Positions 40,058 through 53,950 of a DNA stretch of 64,000 bases are shown in pieces. A program made the position numbers and the translations under genes. Numbering within the stretch: position 1 is the stretch's first letter; every line of letters begins with the position of its first letter. A model generated the notes under the pieces. That model worked only from the letters and a program-made list of their open reading frames with translations. It was not told where the DNA came from and did no database searches. This stretch comes from Escherichia phage FFH2. The stretch lies in the sequence record KJ190158. One strand, 5' to 3'.

Positions 40058-40176
40058 AGCACCGAGCCCACACAGGTTCCTCATACTAAAGCATGGCCTG
40101 AAGAGGCAAACGTGCATAATTCCTGCGCATTTGGACGTATAATCCTGTTCACACTCTCATTTCCAGAGGAGATTTT

Positions 40177-40392
40177 ATGAAGATAGAAATATTTGGTGGA
40201 GCTGACAACACTCGTGGCCTGATTTACCTTGAATTTGATGAATCATACCTGCCAGAGGTGTTAAATATAGACTCTGTTGCTGAGGCTTTGGGAGTAAACC
40301 CTAAAGAACTCCACTCTTGTGCTGAGATCGATGGTTGGGAAGAGACCATGAACATTGATTTCAGTGAAGTAGAGGATGAACCGCTGGACTGA
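40177..40392 (+). CDS. small acidic protein (71 aa; MKIEIFG N-terminus)
   Basis: GGAGA SD; last gene of the rightward block. Confidence 0.4.
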   Translation: MKIEIFGGADNTRGLIYLEFDESYLPEVLNIDSVAEALGVNPKELHSCAEIDGWEETMNIDFSEVEDEPLD

Positions 40393-42805
40393 CACACAAT
40401 TAGCTGCCCGGCTAAAGTGCTGGAAGCACCTATAACACATCTTTCAACTAAATTTCCTACCACCACAATCACTTACCTCCCACACATGACTGTTTGCTTG
40501 TTTAGTGAGCAGTCATGCCTTGACATTCTTGCCTATCCTGATAAAATTAAGTTCTTCTCTTTTCTTTTACCGAGTAATTCGGGTTTTCTGTTCTCTTCGG
40601 TTTGAAGGGGTATAGAGATACACCTGAGTGAACAGGGTGAACAACCGAACATTTGGCTATGGCATTAGCATGGCGAAGCGGACGGGTGACGAAAGAGGGG
40701 CCGGAGGACACCAGTCACTGCCATATGATATATGGGTGATAACCTGAAGAGTCTGAATAAGTGTTTAAGTACCAGTCAGAGGAAAAGGTGAATGGTAGCC
40801 GAAGGGGGAGGGGGGTTTCTTGTATCTTTAATTTGTATATTATGTATACACTTGTAAACCAATCTCATCTGAATTTGTTTACCACACAAAGTGGATAGGG
40901 ACAAATATTACCTATTAAACTTGAATTATTTATAGAAATACCACAACACCACTTAAGTCTTTGATTTTACACACAAATCCTACAGATATTCACCCTCCAT
41001 ATTTAACATACCTGTAACATATTCCATACCCTACCTGACCGATCAATTCACCCAACTACATCCCCATATTTTCCCTGTCTGTACTACCCCTGCCCCGCCG
41101 GGAGTCCCGTCATATCTGGCTTTCCAGCAAATATCACACCCACAAATATCATTGCCTGAAGAGGGTTTCATCCCATAATACATGCCTTACCTGAAGAGCG
41201 CTTCATACACCACGTAAATTTTTTAATTGACCCCCTCCCCGCCGCCGGAGAGGTTGGCTTTTCCCACACAGACCTGAAGAGTCAGCCAGAAATATCTGAA
41301 CAGGTCCAGCTATGCCACGATTTTGTGCTTGTCCTACAGGAGTGCCTCCCTGTCAGGAGCCGGTAGCGACTGGAGTGCTGCCAGGCGGACGAAATGGGAA
41401 TCATTCTCATTCTTATAACAATTCTCAAATATCGAGGCAGTGAGGCAAATTAATAGGTGAGGCCGTTCACACAATGGCACAACATTTGCAACCTATCTTG
41501 TGGGAGTGAATGAGAATACCTATCATTGTGAGAATAGTTATCATTACGGGCAATTTAACATAATACCCATTATGCGCACCACTGGCGATCCATACAGGGA
41601 TTGATAACATGGGTTACTGTTTACACACATAACAATTATATTTCTTACTATTTGTGTGGGATATAGTTAGCAGCCGATAGATTAGATATTGACCTGTAGA
41701 CTTCCAACCGTCCAGACGTCTAAACGCCCACACAACAAGGGTTATACATACACAACTGAATGTAAACAGGGCCGCAAAAATGCTACCATACAAGCTTGTA
41801 AATTTTTCATGCAGCACTTGACAAAGAGGAGGAAAACTTGTCTGACACTTTAGACACAATAGTGACATAATATGACATAATGGTGACACTGAACATAATT
41901 GACATGCCTGACTGTTTACATAGCTAACTATTCATACAGAAATGATAAGCCATGCCATTCGTTTGCATGATAATAATTAACTTGTTTACAATAGATGACA
42001 TAATATAAAAGCAGGGCAACTATTAGAAGATCTATAGTTGCCTTGCTTGTTATGTCATGATTAACTAAATACAAGGCAACTATGATCTGATTAATAGTTT
42101 GCAGACAAACTATCACGGGGGTGATGGTTACTGCTTTTATATTATGTCGCGACTCCGTCGCGCCATGCCATTCGTTTGCATAGTTGCCTTATTGTTACAG
42201 ATAAAATAATTGTATTGTTAATTATTTCTTATCTTTCTCTTAGTCATCTAATGATTCCAGTCAGTATAGTAATGTACAGTAAACATTAGACGACTAAAGA
42301 TTTCTCTGTTTATTATAACTTACCGTGACAATTTCAGGCTGTTTACGAAAAATGTTGACACCTGGGCCGATTTATGTTATGCAGTTTACACGAATAATTA
42401 TTTTATGCAGGTATTGACTATTCCGTTATTCTATGGTTGGAATAAATACTTAGCAGACTATAGAATGGTGAGCGTACGTAAATTCTGAGATCTGGCGGCT
42501 ATAGTTATACTCGATTTTTCACGTAGAACACGCTTTTGTTAGTGTGTAAGTGTATGACTTATAAAGATTTTTAGTTGTTGACAAGATATTGAAGATGTGC
42601 ATCAGGTTAAATTTTGTGCAATAGCGGCATTACGTGCAATTTTGAGAGAGAAAACGGGTAAAAATGGCCTTGCTATCACACAATGAAAAATTATGCAATA
42701 GTTATTTTACATGTATGTTTGTACAGTGTGTGGGATTGATGGCTAGTCAATTATTCCACTTGCCAGGCTGGGCCGTTTGTGGTAGGAGAAATACAGACAA
42801 AAAGA

Positions 42806-42830
42806 AAGGGGCCTTTTAAAGCCCCTGATA
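42806..42830 (-). terminator. intrinsic terminator for the leftward block (GGGGC tttaaaag GCCCC + T-run on minus strand)
   Basis: Read directly just downstream of the stop of ORF 42845..43264. Confidence 0.55.
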
Positions 42831-42844
42831 GTTTAGTTAAGAAA

Positions 42845-43264
42845 TTATAATGATTCGTATATTTCATAGATTCGATTTGCCAGGTCGTTACGGTAGCGGA
42901 ATTTTTCCTCACGTTTGATCATCAGATCTTTAAAGCCATATTCTTTAAGCACTTCATTAACTTTATGGCGGCATACCTTCATATTATCCTGTGCGTCACC
43001 AATAAACCTGTTGCTATGGTGCATGGCTTTAATTTCTTCTTCCAGGACCAGAGCAACTATGCGGACCGGATCAAGCTGATAGGCGGTAACATCCATGCGG
43101 CATTGTAAACGACTTTTTACGTCTGCCACCGGATATACTGCAACCTCTTCCCCGTCAACATTGACAATAATTAGTTTACCATCGATTTCGAATCCTTTCG
43201 CCGCCGGACCGTGACAAAAAGCGTTATCAAAGCTATATGCCGGATTATTAGATTTAATGTTCAT
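42845..43264 (-). CDS. hypothetical protein (139 aa)
   Basis: AAGAGG SD; promoter TTGACA-17-TATATT upstream. Confidence 0.45.
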   Translation of the reverse strand: MNIKSNNPAYSFDNAFCHGPAAKGFEIDGKLIIVNVDGEEVAVYPVADVKSRLQCRMDVTAYQLDPVRIVALVLEEEIKAMHHSNRFIGDAQDNMKVCRHKVNEVLKEYGFKDLMIKREEKFRYRNDLANRIYEIYESL

Positions 43265-50481: not shown

Positions 50482-50818
50482 TATTTGCCTGAATCGCCCG
50501 GATACGACGTTTTATAGTCTCCTGATCCTTGCAATCATATCCCCAAAAGTCTACGATTTTTGCGCCGCCAGCCTTTAAGCGGTATAATGTTTCTTGCATC
50601 TTGTAAGCTGGGATCGGTCTCGGTGTTACCTGGTCCCCTTTCCCATCCTTGTACTTGATAATGTAGTCTTCGTTGTCGTTGAATACCCAAAATGGGTATT
50701 CTGTAAGCGCGTTGCTCTCTTTTTCGTTTTTGGATTGGATCTTGTTTACAATTAAAGCCGTAGCAATAGCGCCAATAATAAAACTTGCCCCGCTGATCAT
50801 GTTACTTTCTCCTTTCAT
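50447..50818 (-). CDS. membrane-anchored protein (123 aa)
   Basis: N-terminal hydrophobic helix. Confidence 0.4.
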   Translation of the reverse strand: MKGESNMISGASFIIGAIATALIVNKIQSKNEKESNALTEYPFWVFNDNEDYIIKYKDGKGDQVTPRPIPAYKMQETLYRLKAGGAKIVDFWGYDCKDQETIKRRIRAIQANIEISKGGVYEN

Positions 50819-50876
50819 TGTGCTGATAAACTATCTTTATAGATGGCCCTGCCACCAGGACCACCGAAAAAACAGT

Positions 50877-51122
50877 TTATTTGACGATACCGACAAAACA
50901 GATCCCGCCTTCCCCTATATAGGCAATATCGGTAATTTTATAATTTGTCAAGATCCGCGTGTTCAGATCATTAATAAAATCGGTCATCGCGTTGGTGTAG
51001 TTGTCTTCCGTGTCTAAGGCATAATCCCAGGTGTAAACCTTTTTACGTCCGAAGCCTTTTACCATGATACGGGCGCTTTTGGTGTTGGTAGGGGCATAAT
51101 ATTTGGTAATTAGTGCGGCCAT
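50877..51122 (-). CDS. hypothetical protein (81 aa)
   Basis: Preceded by conserved promoter-hairpin repeat copy 2. Confidence 0.4.
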   Translation of the reverse strand: MAALITKYYAPTNTKSARIMVKGFGRKKVYTWDYALDTEDNYTNAMTDFINDLNTRILTNYKITDIAYIGEGGICFVGIVK

Positions 51123-51165
51123 TGTTTTAACTCCTCTATATTAGTTCAGTGTTAACAGTGTAAAG

Positions 51166-51213
51166 TTTACTTTATTGATGGCCCTGGAGTCAAGGCCATC
51201 TAAAAATAAATTT
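51166..51213 (-). repeat. conserved 45-bp promoter-associated hairpin element, copy 2
   Basis: Near-identical to copy 1 (ctggag in place of ctgaag). Confidence 0.5.
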
Positions 51214-51553
51214 ACTCGTTTTCTTCCAGTTCTGCAAGCTCTTCTTTCACTTCTTCAAGCTCTGTCTGTAATTCTTGGTATTCTTCATCGTCCTCAATAT
51301 CCAGGCTGTCGATGTAGTCGCTAAATCCGCAGCGGTAAGCGATAGGATCTAGCTCCTTGAGGATACGCGACGGAAGAAAAGAAATGTTTCCGATCATAAT
51401 TTCGCCGTAGATCTCGTCTAACCATTCATCATAGTTTTCGTCGTACTTGTCCTCGTCGATTTCAAAGTTATCGATCTTATTCTCAAGGTCTGCGATCTGT
51501 TTTTTCAGCGCGGCGATCTGCATGGCTTTTTCTGCGGCGGTCATAGTAGTCAT
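51212..51553 (-). CDS. hypothetical acidic coiled-coil protein (113 aa)
   Basis: Promoter TTGACA-18-TACTAA and 5' hairpin upstream. Confidence 0.4.
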   Translation of the reverse strand: MTTMTAAEKAMQIAALKKQIADLENKIDNFEIDEDKYDENYDEWLDEIYGEIMIGNISFLPSRILKELDPIAYRCGFSDYIDSLDIEDDEEYQELQTELEEVKEELAELEENE

Positions 51554-51751: not shown

Positions 51752-51783
51752 CTTCAAGCCTCCTTTTAGCTTAACTGGGATTA

Positions 51784-51830
51784 GTTTACTTTATTGATGG
51801 CCCTGGCGTCAAGACCATCTAAAAATAAAC
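51784..51830 (-). repeat. conserved 45-bp promoter-associated hairpin element, copy 3
   Basis: Near-identical to copies 1 and 2. Confidence 0.5.
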
Positions 51831-52226
51831 TTAGTAAGTTTTCAGTACTTTCCCGTCCAATCTGTCAAGCTGGATCTCGATAGCTGCAGAAAACCTATTA
51901 TAAACCACATCGCCCATGGAGTCCAGCCAATCTATGACGTTATACACCTGCTCTTTATTCTTGCAAGTCCGGATCCGTTTCATTACGTAAGACGGATCAA
52001 TATTAGTGCTCTCGTTGTTGTGGTCATGCGCCTGGCCTGCTGCATTAGTTATAGATTTTACAACCACCTGAAAGGGCTTTAAGGTGCCTTTTGCGTTCAT
52101 CTCACGCGCTTTTGCGGCGCGGTTGTTATATGTTACACAACGGCGGCAAATGTTGACCAAATGCATATCAATAATTTTTTCATCGTTTGCCAGTTCGTTC
52201 ATGATGCGGCGTACGTTCTTATTCAT
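51831..52226 (-). CDS. hypothetical protein (131 aa)
   Basis: Promoter TTGACA-16-TAAACT and 5' hairpin GGCGGGAAtgttTCCCGCC upstream. Confidence 0.4.
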   Translation of the reverse strand: MNKNVRRIMNELANDEKIIDMHLVNICRRCVTYNNRAAKAREMNAKGTLKPFQVVVKSITNAAGQAHDHNNESTNIDPSYVMKRIRTCKNKEQVYNVIDWLDSMGDVVYNRFSAAIEIQLDRLDGKVLKTY

Positions 52227-53235: not shown

Positions 53236-53394
53236 TTTTGTACCTCCTCTTCAATTGTTACCTATCCTATAGCATAGGCCCACCAGGTTTACAAGCCTTC
53301 ATTCTCTCCTACCTGGTCAGTTAGGTCCTGCCAGGCTGGCCCCACTAGGTTGCAGCGGTTAGTGCATCAGGTTAGAAAAATTTTTTGAAAAGTG

Positions 53395-53520
53395 TTGACA
53401 GCGGCCCCGCCAGGTGGCACAATATACCTATCGAAAGGACGGCAGGCACCGGTGACGGGGGAGACAACCACCGGGGATGGGCGCTGCATAAAATGAGAAC
53501 GGTTATCATTATCATTTAAA
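53395..53520 (+). ncRNA. candidate small RNA unit 1 (promoter, GC hairpin with GGGAGACAACCACCGG, then GAGAACGGTTATCATT tail)
   Basis: TTGACA at 53395; shares hairpin and tail motifs with unit 2. Confidence 0.3.
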
Positions 53521-53538
53521 AATTTATGCAAAAAATCC

Positions 53539-53660
53539 TTGCTTTCTTTGTCCTGTGTGATACTATAATAACAAGCCGGGGCAACAGGGGCCGGGAGACA
53601 ATCACCGGGCCTGCCCGTTATTCTGCAAACGAGAATGATTATCATTCAAAATTCTAAATG
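53539..53660 (+). ncRNA. candidate small RNA unit 2 (TTGCTT ... TATAAT, GGGAGACAATCACCGG hairpin, GAGAATGATTATCATT tail)
   Basis: Tandem to unit 1 in a non-coding island. Confidence 0.3.
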
Positions 53661-53762
53661 AGAACTCCTCGCATTTAATAAATTTAATTAGCACGCTAAT
53701 TACACTCCGTAACAATTTACTATAAAATAGTATCCACTAAAATATTCCCATATAGAAATTTT

Positions 53763-53950
53763 AAAAATCCATTTCTGAAAACGAAAAATCGATTTCGTCC
53801 CTAAAAATTTCAGGCCTAGATCCGGAACGATTTCCAGAAAATCCGATTCAGAAAACGAAAAACAGATCGAGTACTGAGAAATTTATCGAGAAAAATTTTC
53901 AGAAAATCCAAGCCCTGAAATGAAAAGTAGATCGAGTACCTGGAAAGCTG
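53763..53950. repeat. three degenerate tandem direct repeats (about 65 bp each; core AGAAAATCC ... CTGAAAACGAAAA ... GATCGAGTAC)
   Basis: Read directly; inverted partial copies at 54112-54215. Confidence 0.55.

What the first reader, a model, noticed from the sequence alone, without database searches (positions are those of the whole stretch)
40393..42844. 2.4-kb repeat-dense convergent intergenic region with iteron-like and palindromic arrays
Both gene blocks end here and nothing convincing is coded (track ORFs 41614..41889 and 41928..42116 lack SD and lie in repeats). Directly visible: the 9-mer CCTGAAGAG five times (40098, 40745, 41155, 41190, 41268); paired copies of CCCGCCG..GGAG...GGCTTT(T)CC (about 41090 and 41235); GAGAAT..TATCATT motifs at about 41393-41545 shared with the 53.4-kb island; a symmetric module at 41950-42190 with a 19-bp direct repeat CCATGCCATTCGTTTGCAT (x2), a 17-bp inverted repeat GACATAATATAAAAGCAG, and four GGCAACTAT/ATAGTTGCC sites in alternating orientation; TGACA(T) words at about 10-bp spacing around 41860-41900. 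This looks like dense protein-binding architecture: origin, partition or operator sites, or ncRNA genes.
Basis: seen in the sequence. Interest (0 to 1): 0.7.

Follow-up and report, generated by a model that had tools for sequence, protein, structure and literature searches.

The report
Phage genome ends plus hidden RNA gene
This 2.45-kb gene-free stretch is where the linear DNA of an rV5-like coliphage begins and ends: it holds the 459-bp terminal repeat with repeat arrays that probably guide DNA cutting and packaging, and also a previously undescribed, promoter-driven structured RNA gene.

Summary
The window comes from a Vequintavirus (rV5-like coliphage). Region 40393-42844 is the "non-coding" box of the rV5 paper.

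The 459-bp direct terminal repeat (DTR) reported for phages Gotham, HdK5 and EdH4 maps without gaps to 41384-41842. The DTR has almost no indels but sits between two hypervariable, indel-rich arrays. A ~10-bp-phased TGACAY array starts at the first base after the right cut. A phapecoctavirus from another subfamily has a 328-bp DTR in the same place with the same motif geometry.

Two elements are more conserved than the neighbouring genes:
- **RNA gene, 40553-40820 (+):** a sigma-70 promoter drives a ~270-nt RNA supported by compensatory base changes and absent from Rfam.
- **Palindrome, 41997-42148:** a ~150-bp nested palindrome holding the four GGCAACTAT sites, found in nearly all relatives but deleted in FV3.

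Best reading: a DTR concatemer junction with packaging signals plus an ncRNA gene. Origin function is not excluded; partition and coding are unsupported. The DTR was already published; the anatomy and the RNA appear new.

The parts
40393..42844 (.). Whole gene-free terminal region (concatemer junction as seen in a circularly assembled genome). It equals rV5 104014-106617, the 'non-coding' box.
40097..40105 (+). First of five oriented CCTGAAGAG 9-mers. The others are at 40743-40751, 41155-41163, 41190-41198 and 41273-41281. All are on the + strand, and their positions are conserved in the distant sister clade.
40487..40518 (+). Hairpin CATGACTG-N16-CAGTCATG just upstream of the promoter. The sister clade has a completely different sequence that still forms a hairpin (ATACCTAC..GTAGGTAT).
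40520..40547 (+). Sigma-70 promoter TTGACA-16-(TG)ATAAAAT, matching 11 of 12. The sister clade has TTGCAA-17-TG.TATAAT.
40553..40820 (+). Candidate structured ncRNA of ~270 nt. From 5' to 3': polypyrimidine tract, hairpins P1 (40570-40582) and P2, invariant CUGAGUGAACAGSGUGAACAWCCGAA, helices P6/P8, a helix enclosing invariant GUUUAAGUACCAG, and a G5-A-G6 tract (40804-40815). The conserved block ends about 40817-40820.
40821..41072 (.). AT-rich spacer (GC 0.317) that is variable among relatives.
41073..41300 (+). Duplicated C-rich module (CCCCGCCGGGAG..GGCTTTCC..CCTGAAGAG). The first copy, 41073-41171, is conserved at 76-79% in the sister clade.
41301..41365 (.). Hypervariable, indel-rich stretch left of the DTR, with (A/C)NNGGAG(T/C)GC words. 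Mean pairwise identity is 0.76.
41366..41383 (.). Conserved 18 bp just outside the left cut, including AGTGCT at 41374-41379. The same word lies 7 bp outside the left cut of phapecoctavirus Mt1B1_P17.
41384..41842 (.). 459-bp direct terminal repeat (one copy here, two in virion DNA).
- Inside: palindrome 41393-41411
- ACAATTCTCAAATATC at 41418-41433
- Tandem TGAGAAT-N3-TATCATT at 41511-41545
- AAGAGGAG at 41824-31
41843..41905 (+). Phased array of TGACAY / RRACAY words about 10.5 bp apart, starting at the first base after the right DTR boundary. Word content and phasing are kept in relatives while the sequence between words varies.
41906..41944 (+). TRTTYACR (ACTGTTTACA-type) word array. Copy number varies from 1 to 7 among relatives: 1 here, 7 in rV5.
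41949..41968 (+). 20-bp direct repeat GCCATGCCATTCGTTTGCAT. The second copy is at 42162-42181. FV3 has a deletion running from one copy to the other.
41997..42148 (.). ~150-bp nested palindrome.
- 18-bp outer arms.
- Three of the four perfect GGCAACTAT sites lie inside it (42015+, 42034-, 42075+). 42015 pairs with the degenerate copy ATAGTTTGC (~42095), and 42034 pairs with 42075. The fourth perfect site (42180-) lies outside it.
- An extra hairpin at 42108-42129.
- Fold z-score of -12 on both strands.
- The 41995-42200 block is 98.1% identical among relatives.
42201..42800 (.). AT-rich (GC 0.342) non-coding stretch at the left genome end. The island 42495-42604 is conserved at 71% in the sister clade. 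No convincing promoter was found.
42807..42826 (-). Intrinsic terminator of the minus-strand gene block (AGGGGCTTTAAAAGGCCCCT followed by a T run). The sister clade has a different stem at this position.

Best explanation
The region is the terminal region of a phage that packages unit-length DNA with a short direct terminal repeat.

**Layout.** In a replicating concatemer, or a circular assembly like this window, it reads in this order:
- right-end unique DNA (40393-41383)
- one copy of the 459-bp DTR (41384-41842)
- left-end unique DNA (41843-42844)

**Shown.** The DTR coordinates, its sharp conservation boundaries, and the placement of the repeat arrays around the two cut sites.

**Inferred.**
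- Terminase recognises conserved words placed at fixed distances from the cuts. These are AGTGCT about 10 bp outside the left cut, ACAATTCYCAAATATC about 34 bp inside it, AAGAGRAG about 18 bp before the right cut, and the helically phased TGACAY array that starts at the first base after the right cut.
- Terminase then cuts at 41383/41384 and 41842/41843.
- The repeat is duplicated during maturation, as in T7-type phages.

**Two further conserved elements.**
- A sigma-70-driven, ~270-nt structured ncRNA (40553-40820, + strand) is probably made early by host RNA polymerase. Its function is unknown.
- A nearly invariant ~150-bp nested palindrome lies 155-305 bp inside the left unique DNA. It most likely acts as a multi-site binding platform or cruciform/hairpin element. 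It is helpful but not essential, since FV3 lacks it.
For: **Termini.**
- The DTR of Gotham and HdK5 (identical copies at both record ends) maps ungapped to 41384-41842 at 94.8% identity.
- Five records shown end at query position 1450, which corresponds to 41842. Two shown records begin at query position 992, which corresponds to 41384. For Gotham, HdK5 and bov11CS3 these ends were mapped directly onto the window.
[quoted passage not shown] They also report 458-bp terminal redundancies (PMC6563267).

**Conservation pattern.**
- The DTR has only 2 indel columns in 14 genomes.
- The 65 bp and ~100 bp just outside it are the most variable parts of the locus, at 0.76 and 0.68 identity with many indels.
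- Conservation resumes 18 bp outside the left cut and stops 6 bp outside the right cut.

**Arrays.** The TGACAY cluster is non-random and phased. It begins at 41843 in every relative.

**Cross-subfamily check.** Phapecoctavirus Mt1B1_P17 has an exact 328-bp DTR in the homologous place. It carries the same four motifs at nearly the same distances from the cuts.

**ncRNA.**
- The promoter is conserved.
- Pairwise identity is 98.8%, against 90-95% for the neighbouring genes.
- 99.6% of cells are paired, and 8 of 17 pairs changed on both sides. No shuffle of 500 reaches this, and slid controls reach only 20-49% paired.
- There is extra covariation within the sister clade.
- The G-U pairs work only for the + strand.

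**Palindrome.** Fold z-score of -12 on both strands. At least 80% of the 256-bp module query is covered in 116 of 118 matching records.
Against: - No sequencing reads or end-mapping exist for this particular isolate. The termini are assigned by homology.
- One paper infers headful packaging with partial permutation for another Vequintavirus, using PhageTerm on a phage-cocktail assembly (PMC13211470).
- No terminase-binding data exist, so the roles given to the motifs are inference from position and conservation only.
- The covariation for the RNA rests on essentially two lineages, and the alignment was fitted to the proposed structure.
- No canonical terminator follows the RNA, and no expression data were found.
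- The palindrome is absent from FV3, so whatever it does is dispensable.
Confidence: 0.72

Rival explanations
1. The region, or part of it, is a replication origin. One version has iteron-like words plus AT-rich DNA unwinding at 41843-42800. The other has an R-loop origin in which the promoter-driven G-rich RNA (40553-40820) stays hybridised. It would then prime DNA synthesis into the adjacent AT-rich 40821-41072. This could coexist with the terminal-repeat function.
For: - AT-rich blocks (GC 0.32-0.34) lie next to repeat arrays.
- The structured RNA has its own promoter. It ends in G5-A-G6 directly before an AT-rich block.
- ColE1 RNA II and the T4 oriF/oriG R-loop origins work this way (own knowledge, not tested here).
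Against: - There is no DnaA-box cluster. Only single-mismatch hits appear, no denser than elsewhere in the window.
- No initiator gene is next to the arrays. Seven of the eight flanking ORFs fall in PHROGs of unknown function and one in a transcriptional-regulator PHROG.
- Cumulative GC skew peaks here rather than reaching a minimum, and the rV5 authors tied skew shifts to transcription direction.
- The 41950-42190 module is deleted in FV3.
- The word arrays vary 1-7 fold in copy number.
Confidence: 0.2
2. The region is only a convergent transcription-termination zone and spacer. The hairpins and palindromes would be terminators for the two gene blocks, and the rest would be drifting filler.
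For: - The rV5 authors expected bidirectional terminators here.
- A good terminator ends the minus-strand block at 42807-42826. A terminator-like hairpin sits at 40570-40582.
Against: - Filler would not be more conserved than the neighbouring genes. The RNA block is 98.8% identical and the palindrome block 98.1%, against 90-95% for the genes.
- It would not keep phased words at fixed distances from the cut sites across two subfamilies.
- It does not explain the experimentally reported termini.
Confidence: 0.05
3. The phage uses headful (pac) packaging with permuted ends. The record ends at 41384/41842 would then mark only a preferred pac cut or a shared convention among annotators.
For: - A PhageTerm call of headful packaging was made for Vequintavirus BpE1AUH.
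- rV5 was originally treated as circularly permuted.
Against: - Independent groups report defined repeats of 458-459 bp.
- Both record ends carry identical 459-bp copies.
- Both boundaries coincide with sharp conservation edges.
- A related subfamily has an exact 328-bp DTR at the same place.
Confidence: 0.07
4. The region encodes small proteins, as several GenBank records annotate (up to 16 'hypothetical proteins').
For: Automatic annotations in NHEP1, Mangalyan, MiataMamis and PMBT16.
Against: - The ORFs are not conserved and are interrupted in most relatives.
- They show no codon-position bias.
- Indels are not multiples of three.
Confidence: 0.03

Closest known systems
Published terminal repeats of Vequintavirus phages Gotham, HdK5 and EdH4 (PMC7471380, PMC6563267)
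   Same: The same 459-bp sequence block at the same place. The boundaries map base-for-base to 41384 and 41842.
   Different: Those papers give only the repeat length. They do not describe the flanking arrays, the conserved cut-site geometry, the palindrome or the RNA gene.
T7/T3 concatemer junction: short terminal repeat flanked by short-repeat arrays, with transcription pausing at its right end to start packaging
   Same: - A short exact DTR, present once in the concatemer.
- Repeat arrays on both sides of the DTR.
- A promoter near the right end pointing at the repeat.

The link between T7 polymerase pausing at the junction and terminase is cited in PMC3276506. The rest is my own knowledge.
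   Different: - This is a myovirus of ~137 kb with no phage RNA polymerase reported.
- The repeat is 459 bp, against 160 bp in T7.
- Both terminal gene blocks are transcribed toward the ends.
- There is no sequence similarity.
- Terminase relatedness was not tested.
Lambda cos (cosQ-cosN-cosB) and P1 pac (phased hexamer arrays flanking the cut)
   Same: Short words in helical phase next to a specific terminase cut. Oriented upstream elements, as the CCTGAAGAG copies might be (own knowledge).
   Different: Lambda makes cohesive ends and P1 packages by headful. Neither makes a 459-bp DTR. No binding data exist here.
Phapecoctavirus Mt1B1_P17 terminal region (MT496970.1)
   Same: - An exact DTR in the homologous position.
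- The same AGTGCT, ACAATTCYCAAATATC, TGAGAAT-N3-TATCATT and AAGAGRAG motifs at near-identical distances from the cuts.
- A repeat-rich, AT-rich left end followed by the same 139-aa gene.
   Different: - The DTR is 328 bp, not 459 bp.
- The rest of the sequence is not alignable.
- The right-end genes are not convergent.
- The RNA gene's signature motifs were not found in the other phapecoctavirus locus searched (phiWec188, L013). Mt1B1_P17 itself was not searched.
ColE1 RNA II, T4 oriF/oriG R-loop primers and phi29 pRNA (possible analogues for the RNA)
   Same: - A promoter-driven, structured non-coding RNA.
- A G-rich 3' part followed by AT-rich DNA, as with RNA II.
- A gene sited at a genome end, as with pRNA.

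All from my own knowledge.
   Different: There is no sequence or Rfam match to any family, pRNA included. No evidence exists for priming or for a motor role.

Membership tests
Short direct-terminal-repeat (T7-type) genome ends | The same sequence is present at both ends of virion DNA | tested here: met
   The Gotham and HdK5 records carry identical 459-bp copies at both ends, and these map ungapped to 41384-41842. This rests on homology, not on reads of this isolate.
Short direct-terminal-repeat (T7-type) genome ends | Fixed, sequence-specific termini shared by independent isolates | tested here: met
   Seven records shown start or end at query positions corresponding to 41384 and 41842. Three of them (Gotham, HdK5, bov11CS3) were mapped directly onto the window. 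Both boundaries coincide with conservation edges.
Short direct-terminal-repeat (T7-type) genome ends | A 2x read-coverage plateau with sharp read starts and ends over the repeat | not testable with these tools
   No reads were available. This is reported for Gotham in PMC7471380.
Short direct-terminal-repeat (T7-type) genome ends | The large terminase groups with DTR-type terminases | not tested
   The terminase gene was not located in the window and no phylogeny was run.
Replication origin (DnaA / iteron type) | A cluster of DnaA boxes or 17-22-bp iterons next to an initiator gene | tested here: not met
   TTATNCACA gives only one-mismatch hits, no denser than elsewhere in the window. The repeated words are 6-10 bp and vary in copy number. 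No initiator gene is recognisable among the flanking ORFs: seven fall in unknown-function PHROGs and one in a transcriptional-regulator PHROG.
Replication origin (DnaA / iteron type) | An AT-rich unwinding element | tested here: met
   GC is 0.317 at 40821-41072 and 0.342 at 42201-42800. This feature is weak and non-specific.
Replication origin (DnaA / iteron type) | Supports autonomous or phage-dependent replication | not testable with these tools
   This needs a cloning or replication assay.
Any Rfam RNA family | A covariance-model match at or near the gathering score | tested here: not met
   There are no gathering-level hits in 64 kb. Only chance-level hits appear at E<=10 over 40530-40850.
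Structured non-coding RNA gene (generic) | Its own promoter, conserved across lineages | tested here: met
   TTGACA-16-TG.TAAAAT here and TTGCAA-17-TG.TATAAT in the sister clade.
Structured non-coding RNA gene (generic) | Helices kept through compensatory changes | tested here: met
   99.6% of cells are paired and 8 of 17 pairs changed on both sides. No shuffle of 500 reaches this, and slid controls have 0-2 such pairs. Manual counts agree. Caveat: there are only two main lineages, and the alignment was fitted to the model.
Structured non-coding RNA gene (generic) | A defined 3' end or terminator, and a detectable transcript | tested here: inconclusive
   Conservation stops just after the G5-A-G6 tract, about 40817-40820, but no canonical terminator follows. 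No transcript data were found.
Fur box (E. coli iron regulator site) | Match to the 19-bp consensus GATAATGATAATCATTATC | tested here: inconclusive
   The site at 53495-53513 matches 16 of 19, against 0 expected. By my own hand count the DTR copies match only 13-14 of 19. No binding test was possible.
Miniature transposable element (for the 41949-42181 module) | Multiple copies, with target duplications directly abutting the terminal inverted repeats | tested here: not met
   Almost every matching phage record has a single place (119 places in 118 records) and E. coli genomes have none. The direct repeats lie 28 and 13 bp away from the inverted repeats.
Plasmid/prophage partition site | A centromere array next to parA/parB-type genes | tested here: not met
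   None of the eight flanking ORFs has a Pfam hit. Seven match PHROGs of unknown function and one a transcriptional-regulator PHROG. This is a virulent phage family.

The most novel reading that the evidence does not exclude
The ~270-nt RNA at 40553-40820 would be a new family of phage structured RNA that acts on the genome end beside it. One possibility is a primer or R-loop former that starts replication at the right end. Another is a cofactor or timing signal that couples transcription to terminase cutting of the terminal repeat. The oriented CCTGAAGAG words and the phased TGACAY array would then be parts of the same end-processing machine.
Probability: 0.2. Interest if true: 0.75.

Novelty: new variant of a known kind. 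Interest (0 to 1): 0.5.

Why it matters
- **Annotation.** rV5-like phages are widely isolated and proposed for therapy and food safety. Most of their GenBank records are opened arbitrarily, and some fill this region with spurious 'hypothetical proteins'. Knowing the true ends (41384 and 41842 here) fixes genome orientation and annotation.
- **Packaging experiments.** The conserved words at fixed distances from the cuts, shared with a second subfamily, give a concrete and testable packaging signal for a large group of myoviruses. That is useful for engineering and for transduction-risk assessment.
- **The RNA.** The RNA gene is the most conserved element of the locus and matches no described family. 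It is a clean candidate for a new phage RNA function.

Tried and rejected
- **Known RNAs.** Rfam at gathering and at permissive thresholds, and ARAGORN, found nothing.
- **A wrong lead.** The PhageMaP paper on Bas63 turned out to concern a Felixounavirus, so it is irrelevant.
- **Wider DNA homology.** The region is not alignable outside the genus. Only the 139-aa gene matches in phiWec188 and A7_1. The RNA's signature motifs are absent there.
- **Pattern scans.** Scans of viral, metagenome and genome collections found only two clades with the RNA. All other hits were chance matches.
- **Mobile element idea for the palindrome.** Rejected, because it is essentially single-copy in the matching phage records and absent from E. 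coli genomes.
- **Promoter for an sRNA inside the palindrome.** Rejected. In 7 of the 13 close relatives (navn, rV5, C15, NHEP1, A135, C7, Murica) a 42-48-bp insertion splits the putative -35 and -10 boxes.
- **Host target for the RNA.** No E. coli match was found, even at E<=10.
- **DnaA boxes.** No cluster.
- **Structure-aware alignment.** mafft-qinsi is not installed. I used a covariance model built on the close clade instead.
- **Literature.** Searches for Vequintavirus transcriptomes or ncRNAs returned nothing relevant.
Full report
**1. Identity of the window and check of the observation**

The region 40393-42844 matches 120 phage records at 88-99% identity. All are rV5-like myoviruses of the genus Vequintavirus, including about 19 records labelled 'Campylobacter phage'. 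In rV5 it corresponds to 104014-106617, between ORF163 and ORF164. The rV5 paper drew this stretch as a grey 'non-coding' box and noted a skew change there that it tied to transcription direction.

The + strand gene block ends at 40392. The - strand block ends at 42845, with a good terminator at 42807-42826.

The ORFs inside the region are not genes. In 13 close relatives they are interrupted by stops or frameshifts and show no codon-position bias. The neighbouring real gene 40177-40392 is intact in 13 of 14 aligned genomes (the L010 copy aligns 10 nt shorter, with no stop) and varies 9/5/33 by codon position.

**2.

In the distant BLAST listing, five records end at query position 1450 and two begin at position 992.

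- Phage Gotham annotates repeat_region 1-459 and 136567-137025.
- The two end copies are identical in Gotham and in HdK5.
- The 459 bp map without a gap to window 41384-41842 at 94.8% identity. The first and last 60 bases of several records land exactly on those two positions.

The literature agrees. [quoted passage not shown] One later paper infers headful packaging for another member from PhageTerm on a cocktail assembly (PMC13211470). I count that as weak contrary evidence.

So the window shows the concatemer-junction form: right-end unique DNA, one DTR copy, then left-end unique DNA. Both terminal gene blocks are transcribed toward the ends.

**3. Anatomy around the cuts**

I aligned 14 close genomes and found a sharp pattern.

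- The DTR has only 2 indel columns and 93.8% mean pairwise identity.
- The 65 bp to its left (41301-41365) and the ~100 bp to its right (41849-41944) are the most variable parts of the locus. They show 76% and 68% identity and are full of indels.
- Conservation resumes 18 bp outside the left cut and stops 6 bp outside the right cut.

The right-hand variable stretch has an internal order.

- It begins at base 41843, the first base after the DTR, with TGACAY.
- RRACAY words then continue at about 10.5-bp spacing (41843/52/63/73/84/91/900).
- Five exact TGACAY in 58 bp was reached by none of 300 shuffles.
- Relatives keep the words and the phasing while the sequence between words changes.
- A second sub-array of TRTTYACR words follows, with 1 to 7 copies depending on the phage.

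Helical phasing next to a specific cut is what one expects of a terminase recognition array. That role is inference, not shown.

**4. A second subfamily has the same geometry**

The 139-aa gene next to the region is about 91% identical in phapecoctaviruses, which belong to the subfamily Stephanstirmvirinae. The record of Mt1B1_P17 carries an exact 328-bp repeat at both ends, about 0.9 kb from that gene. The sequences are otherwise not alignable, yet four motifs sit at nearly the same distances from the cuts.

| Motif | Position relative to cut | Mt1B1_P17 | This window |
|---|---|---|---|
| AGTGCT | bp outside the left cut | 7 | 10 |
| ACAATTCYCAAATATC | bp inside the left end | 35 | 34 |
| TGAGAAT-N3-TATCATT (palindromic) | inside the DTR | present | present |
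| AAGAGRAG | bp before the right cut | 12 | 18 |

This supports the position of the termini. It also makes these words the best candidates for the packaging signal.

**5. A promoter-driven structured RNA at 40553-40820**

A distant sister clade, known only from metagenome contigs of 121-140 kb (for example L011, L024, L026), shares just islands of similarity with the region.

The strongest island starts at a sigma-70 promoter. Here it is TTGACA-16-TG.TAAAAT, matching 11 of 12. In the sister clade it is TTGCAA-17-TG.TATAAT.

The ~270 nt downstream are 98.8% identical among close relatives. That is higher than the flanking genes at 90-95%. The conserved block ends abruptly just after a G5-A-G6 tract.

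Between the two clades the sequence differs by about a quarter, but the helices are kept:

- **P1:** CCGA/UCGG becomes CCAGAA/UUCUGG.
- **P6:** one G-C to C-G swap.
- **P8:** GUGAC/GUCAC becomes GUUGG/CCAAC.
- **Helix around GUUUAAGUACCAG:** UCUGA/UCAGA becomes CAAUAGCA/UGCUGUUG. Two further compensatory changes occur inside the sister clade.

I built a covariance model on the close clade alone and used it to align the sister clade. On that alignment 99.6% of cells pair and 8 of 17 pairs changed on both sides. None of 500 shuffles reaches this, and slid controls give 20-49% paired with 0-2 such pairs. RNAalifold on the full length adds a long polypyrimidine/polypurine closing helix and hairpin P2. 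Several kept pairs are G-U, so the fold works only for the + strand RNA.

Caveats: there are effectively two lineages, the alignment was fitted to the structure, no canonical terminator follows, and there are no expression data. Rfam has no match. The region matches nothing in E. coli genomes. I rate a real ncRNA gene at about 0.65. Its function is open.

**6. The 'symmetric module'**

The stretch 41997-42148 is one nested palindrome. The 18-bp outer arms enclose two inner arm pairs built from the GGCAACTAT sites and a degenerate copy, plus an extra hairpin. The fold z-score is -12 on both strands.

The 41995-42200 block that contains it is 98.1% identical among relatives, although insertions occur at two points inside the block. 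In 116 of 118 matching records at least 80% of the 256-bp module query is covered. It is essentially single-copy in those records and absent from E. coli genomes.

FV3 lacks it. The deletion runs from one 20-bp direct repeat to the other, which is the classic way palindromes are lost. The module is therefore selected for but dispensable.

The sRNA promoter suggested by a pattern scan is split by an insertion in 7 of the 13 close relatives.

**7. Other repeats**

- **CCTGAAGAG.** The five copies are all on the + strand. Their positions relative to the RNA gene are kept in the sister clade. The three further copies in the window are in-frame Pro-Glu-Glu codons inside genes. Their role is unknown. 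Oriented words upstream of a terminal cut recall lambda cosQ, but that is analogy only.
- **TGAGAAT-N3-TATCATT.** This motif also occurs twice in the 53.4-kb island. One copy there matches the E. coli Fur-box consensus at 16 of 19. The DTR copies match less well, so this stays a lead only.

**8. Origin, partition and coding readings**

- **Origin.** There is no DnaA-box cluster and no recognisable initiator or partition gene among eight flanking ORFs. Cumulative GC skew is at a maximum here. An origin cannot be excluded, especially an R-loop type using the RNA and the AT-rich block after it, but nothing positive supports it.
- **Partition** has no support.
- **Coding** is refuted.

**9. Verdict**

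The region is the DTR-containing terminal region of the genome, which is already published for this genus in outline. The new parts are the detailed cut-site geometry shared across two subfamilies, the phased array at the right cut, the conserved but dispensable palindrome, and an undescribed structured RNA gene.

Noticed in passing
window 53380-53650: Two sigma-70-like promoters on the + strand: TTGACA at 53396, and TTGCTT..TACTATAAT at about 53540-53570. Each is followed by a ~70-nt GC-rich hairpin stretch sharing GGGAGACAAYCACCGGG. Each ends in TGAGAAYGRTTATCATT, and 53495-53513 matches the E. coli Fur-box consensus at 16 of 19. This may be a pair of small RNA genes or regulated sites. There is no Rfam match.
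   Followed up: partly
window 53746-53946: Three imperfect ~62-nt direct repeats spaced 65-74 bp apart (GAAAATCC..GAAAACGAAAAA..GATCGAGTAC) in the same non-coding island.
   Followed up: no
window 50817-50879, 51152-51214, 51771-51833: Three copies of a 63-nt element containing the hairpin GATGGCCCTGG..CAAGGCCATC followed by an A/T run. They look like repeated bidirectional terminators between minus-strand genes.
   Followed up: no
window 42845-43264 (-): The 139-aa protein next to the left genome end is about 91% identical in phapecoctaviruses, a different subfamily. It is absent from Gotham and HdK5. This suggests gene exchange near the genome end.
   Followed up: partly
GenBank records MG0656xx ('Campylobacter phage', UNVERIFIED): About 19 records labelled as Campylobacter phages are ordinary vequintaviruses, 88-95% identical to this coliphage region. 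The host labels are doubtful.
   Followed up: no
window 41824-41870: A strong Shine-Dalgarno-like AGGAGG, followed 5 nt later by TTG, opens a 10-codon mini-ORF that crosses the right DTR boundary. It is probably coincidental, since AAGAGRAG is also the conserved word before the cut.
   Followed up: no
loci L011, L024, L026, L031, L032, L042 (metagenome / IMG-VR contigs of 121-140 kb): A sister clade of vequintavirus-like phages shares about 73-78% DNA identity in conserved islands with this window. The DNA search of the terminal region returned only records at about 88% identity or above, so this clade did not appear among GenBank phages. It is useful for comparative work on this family.
   Followed up: partly
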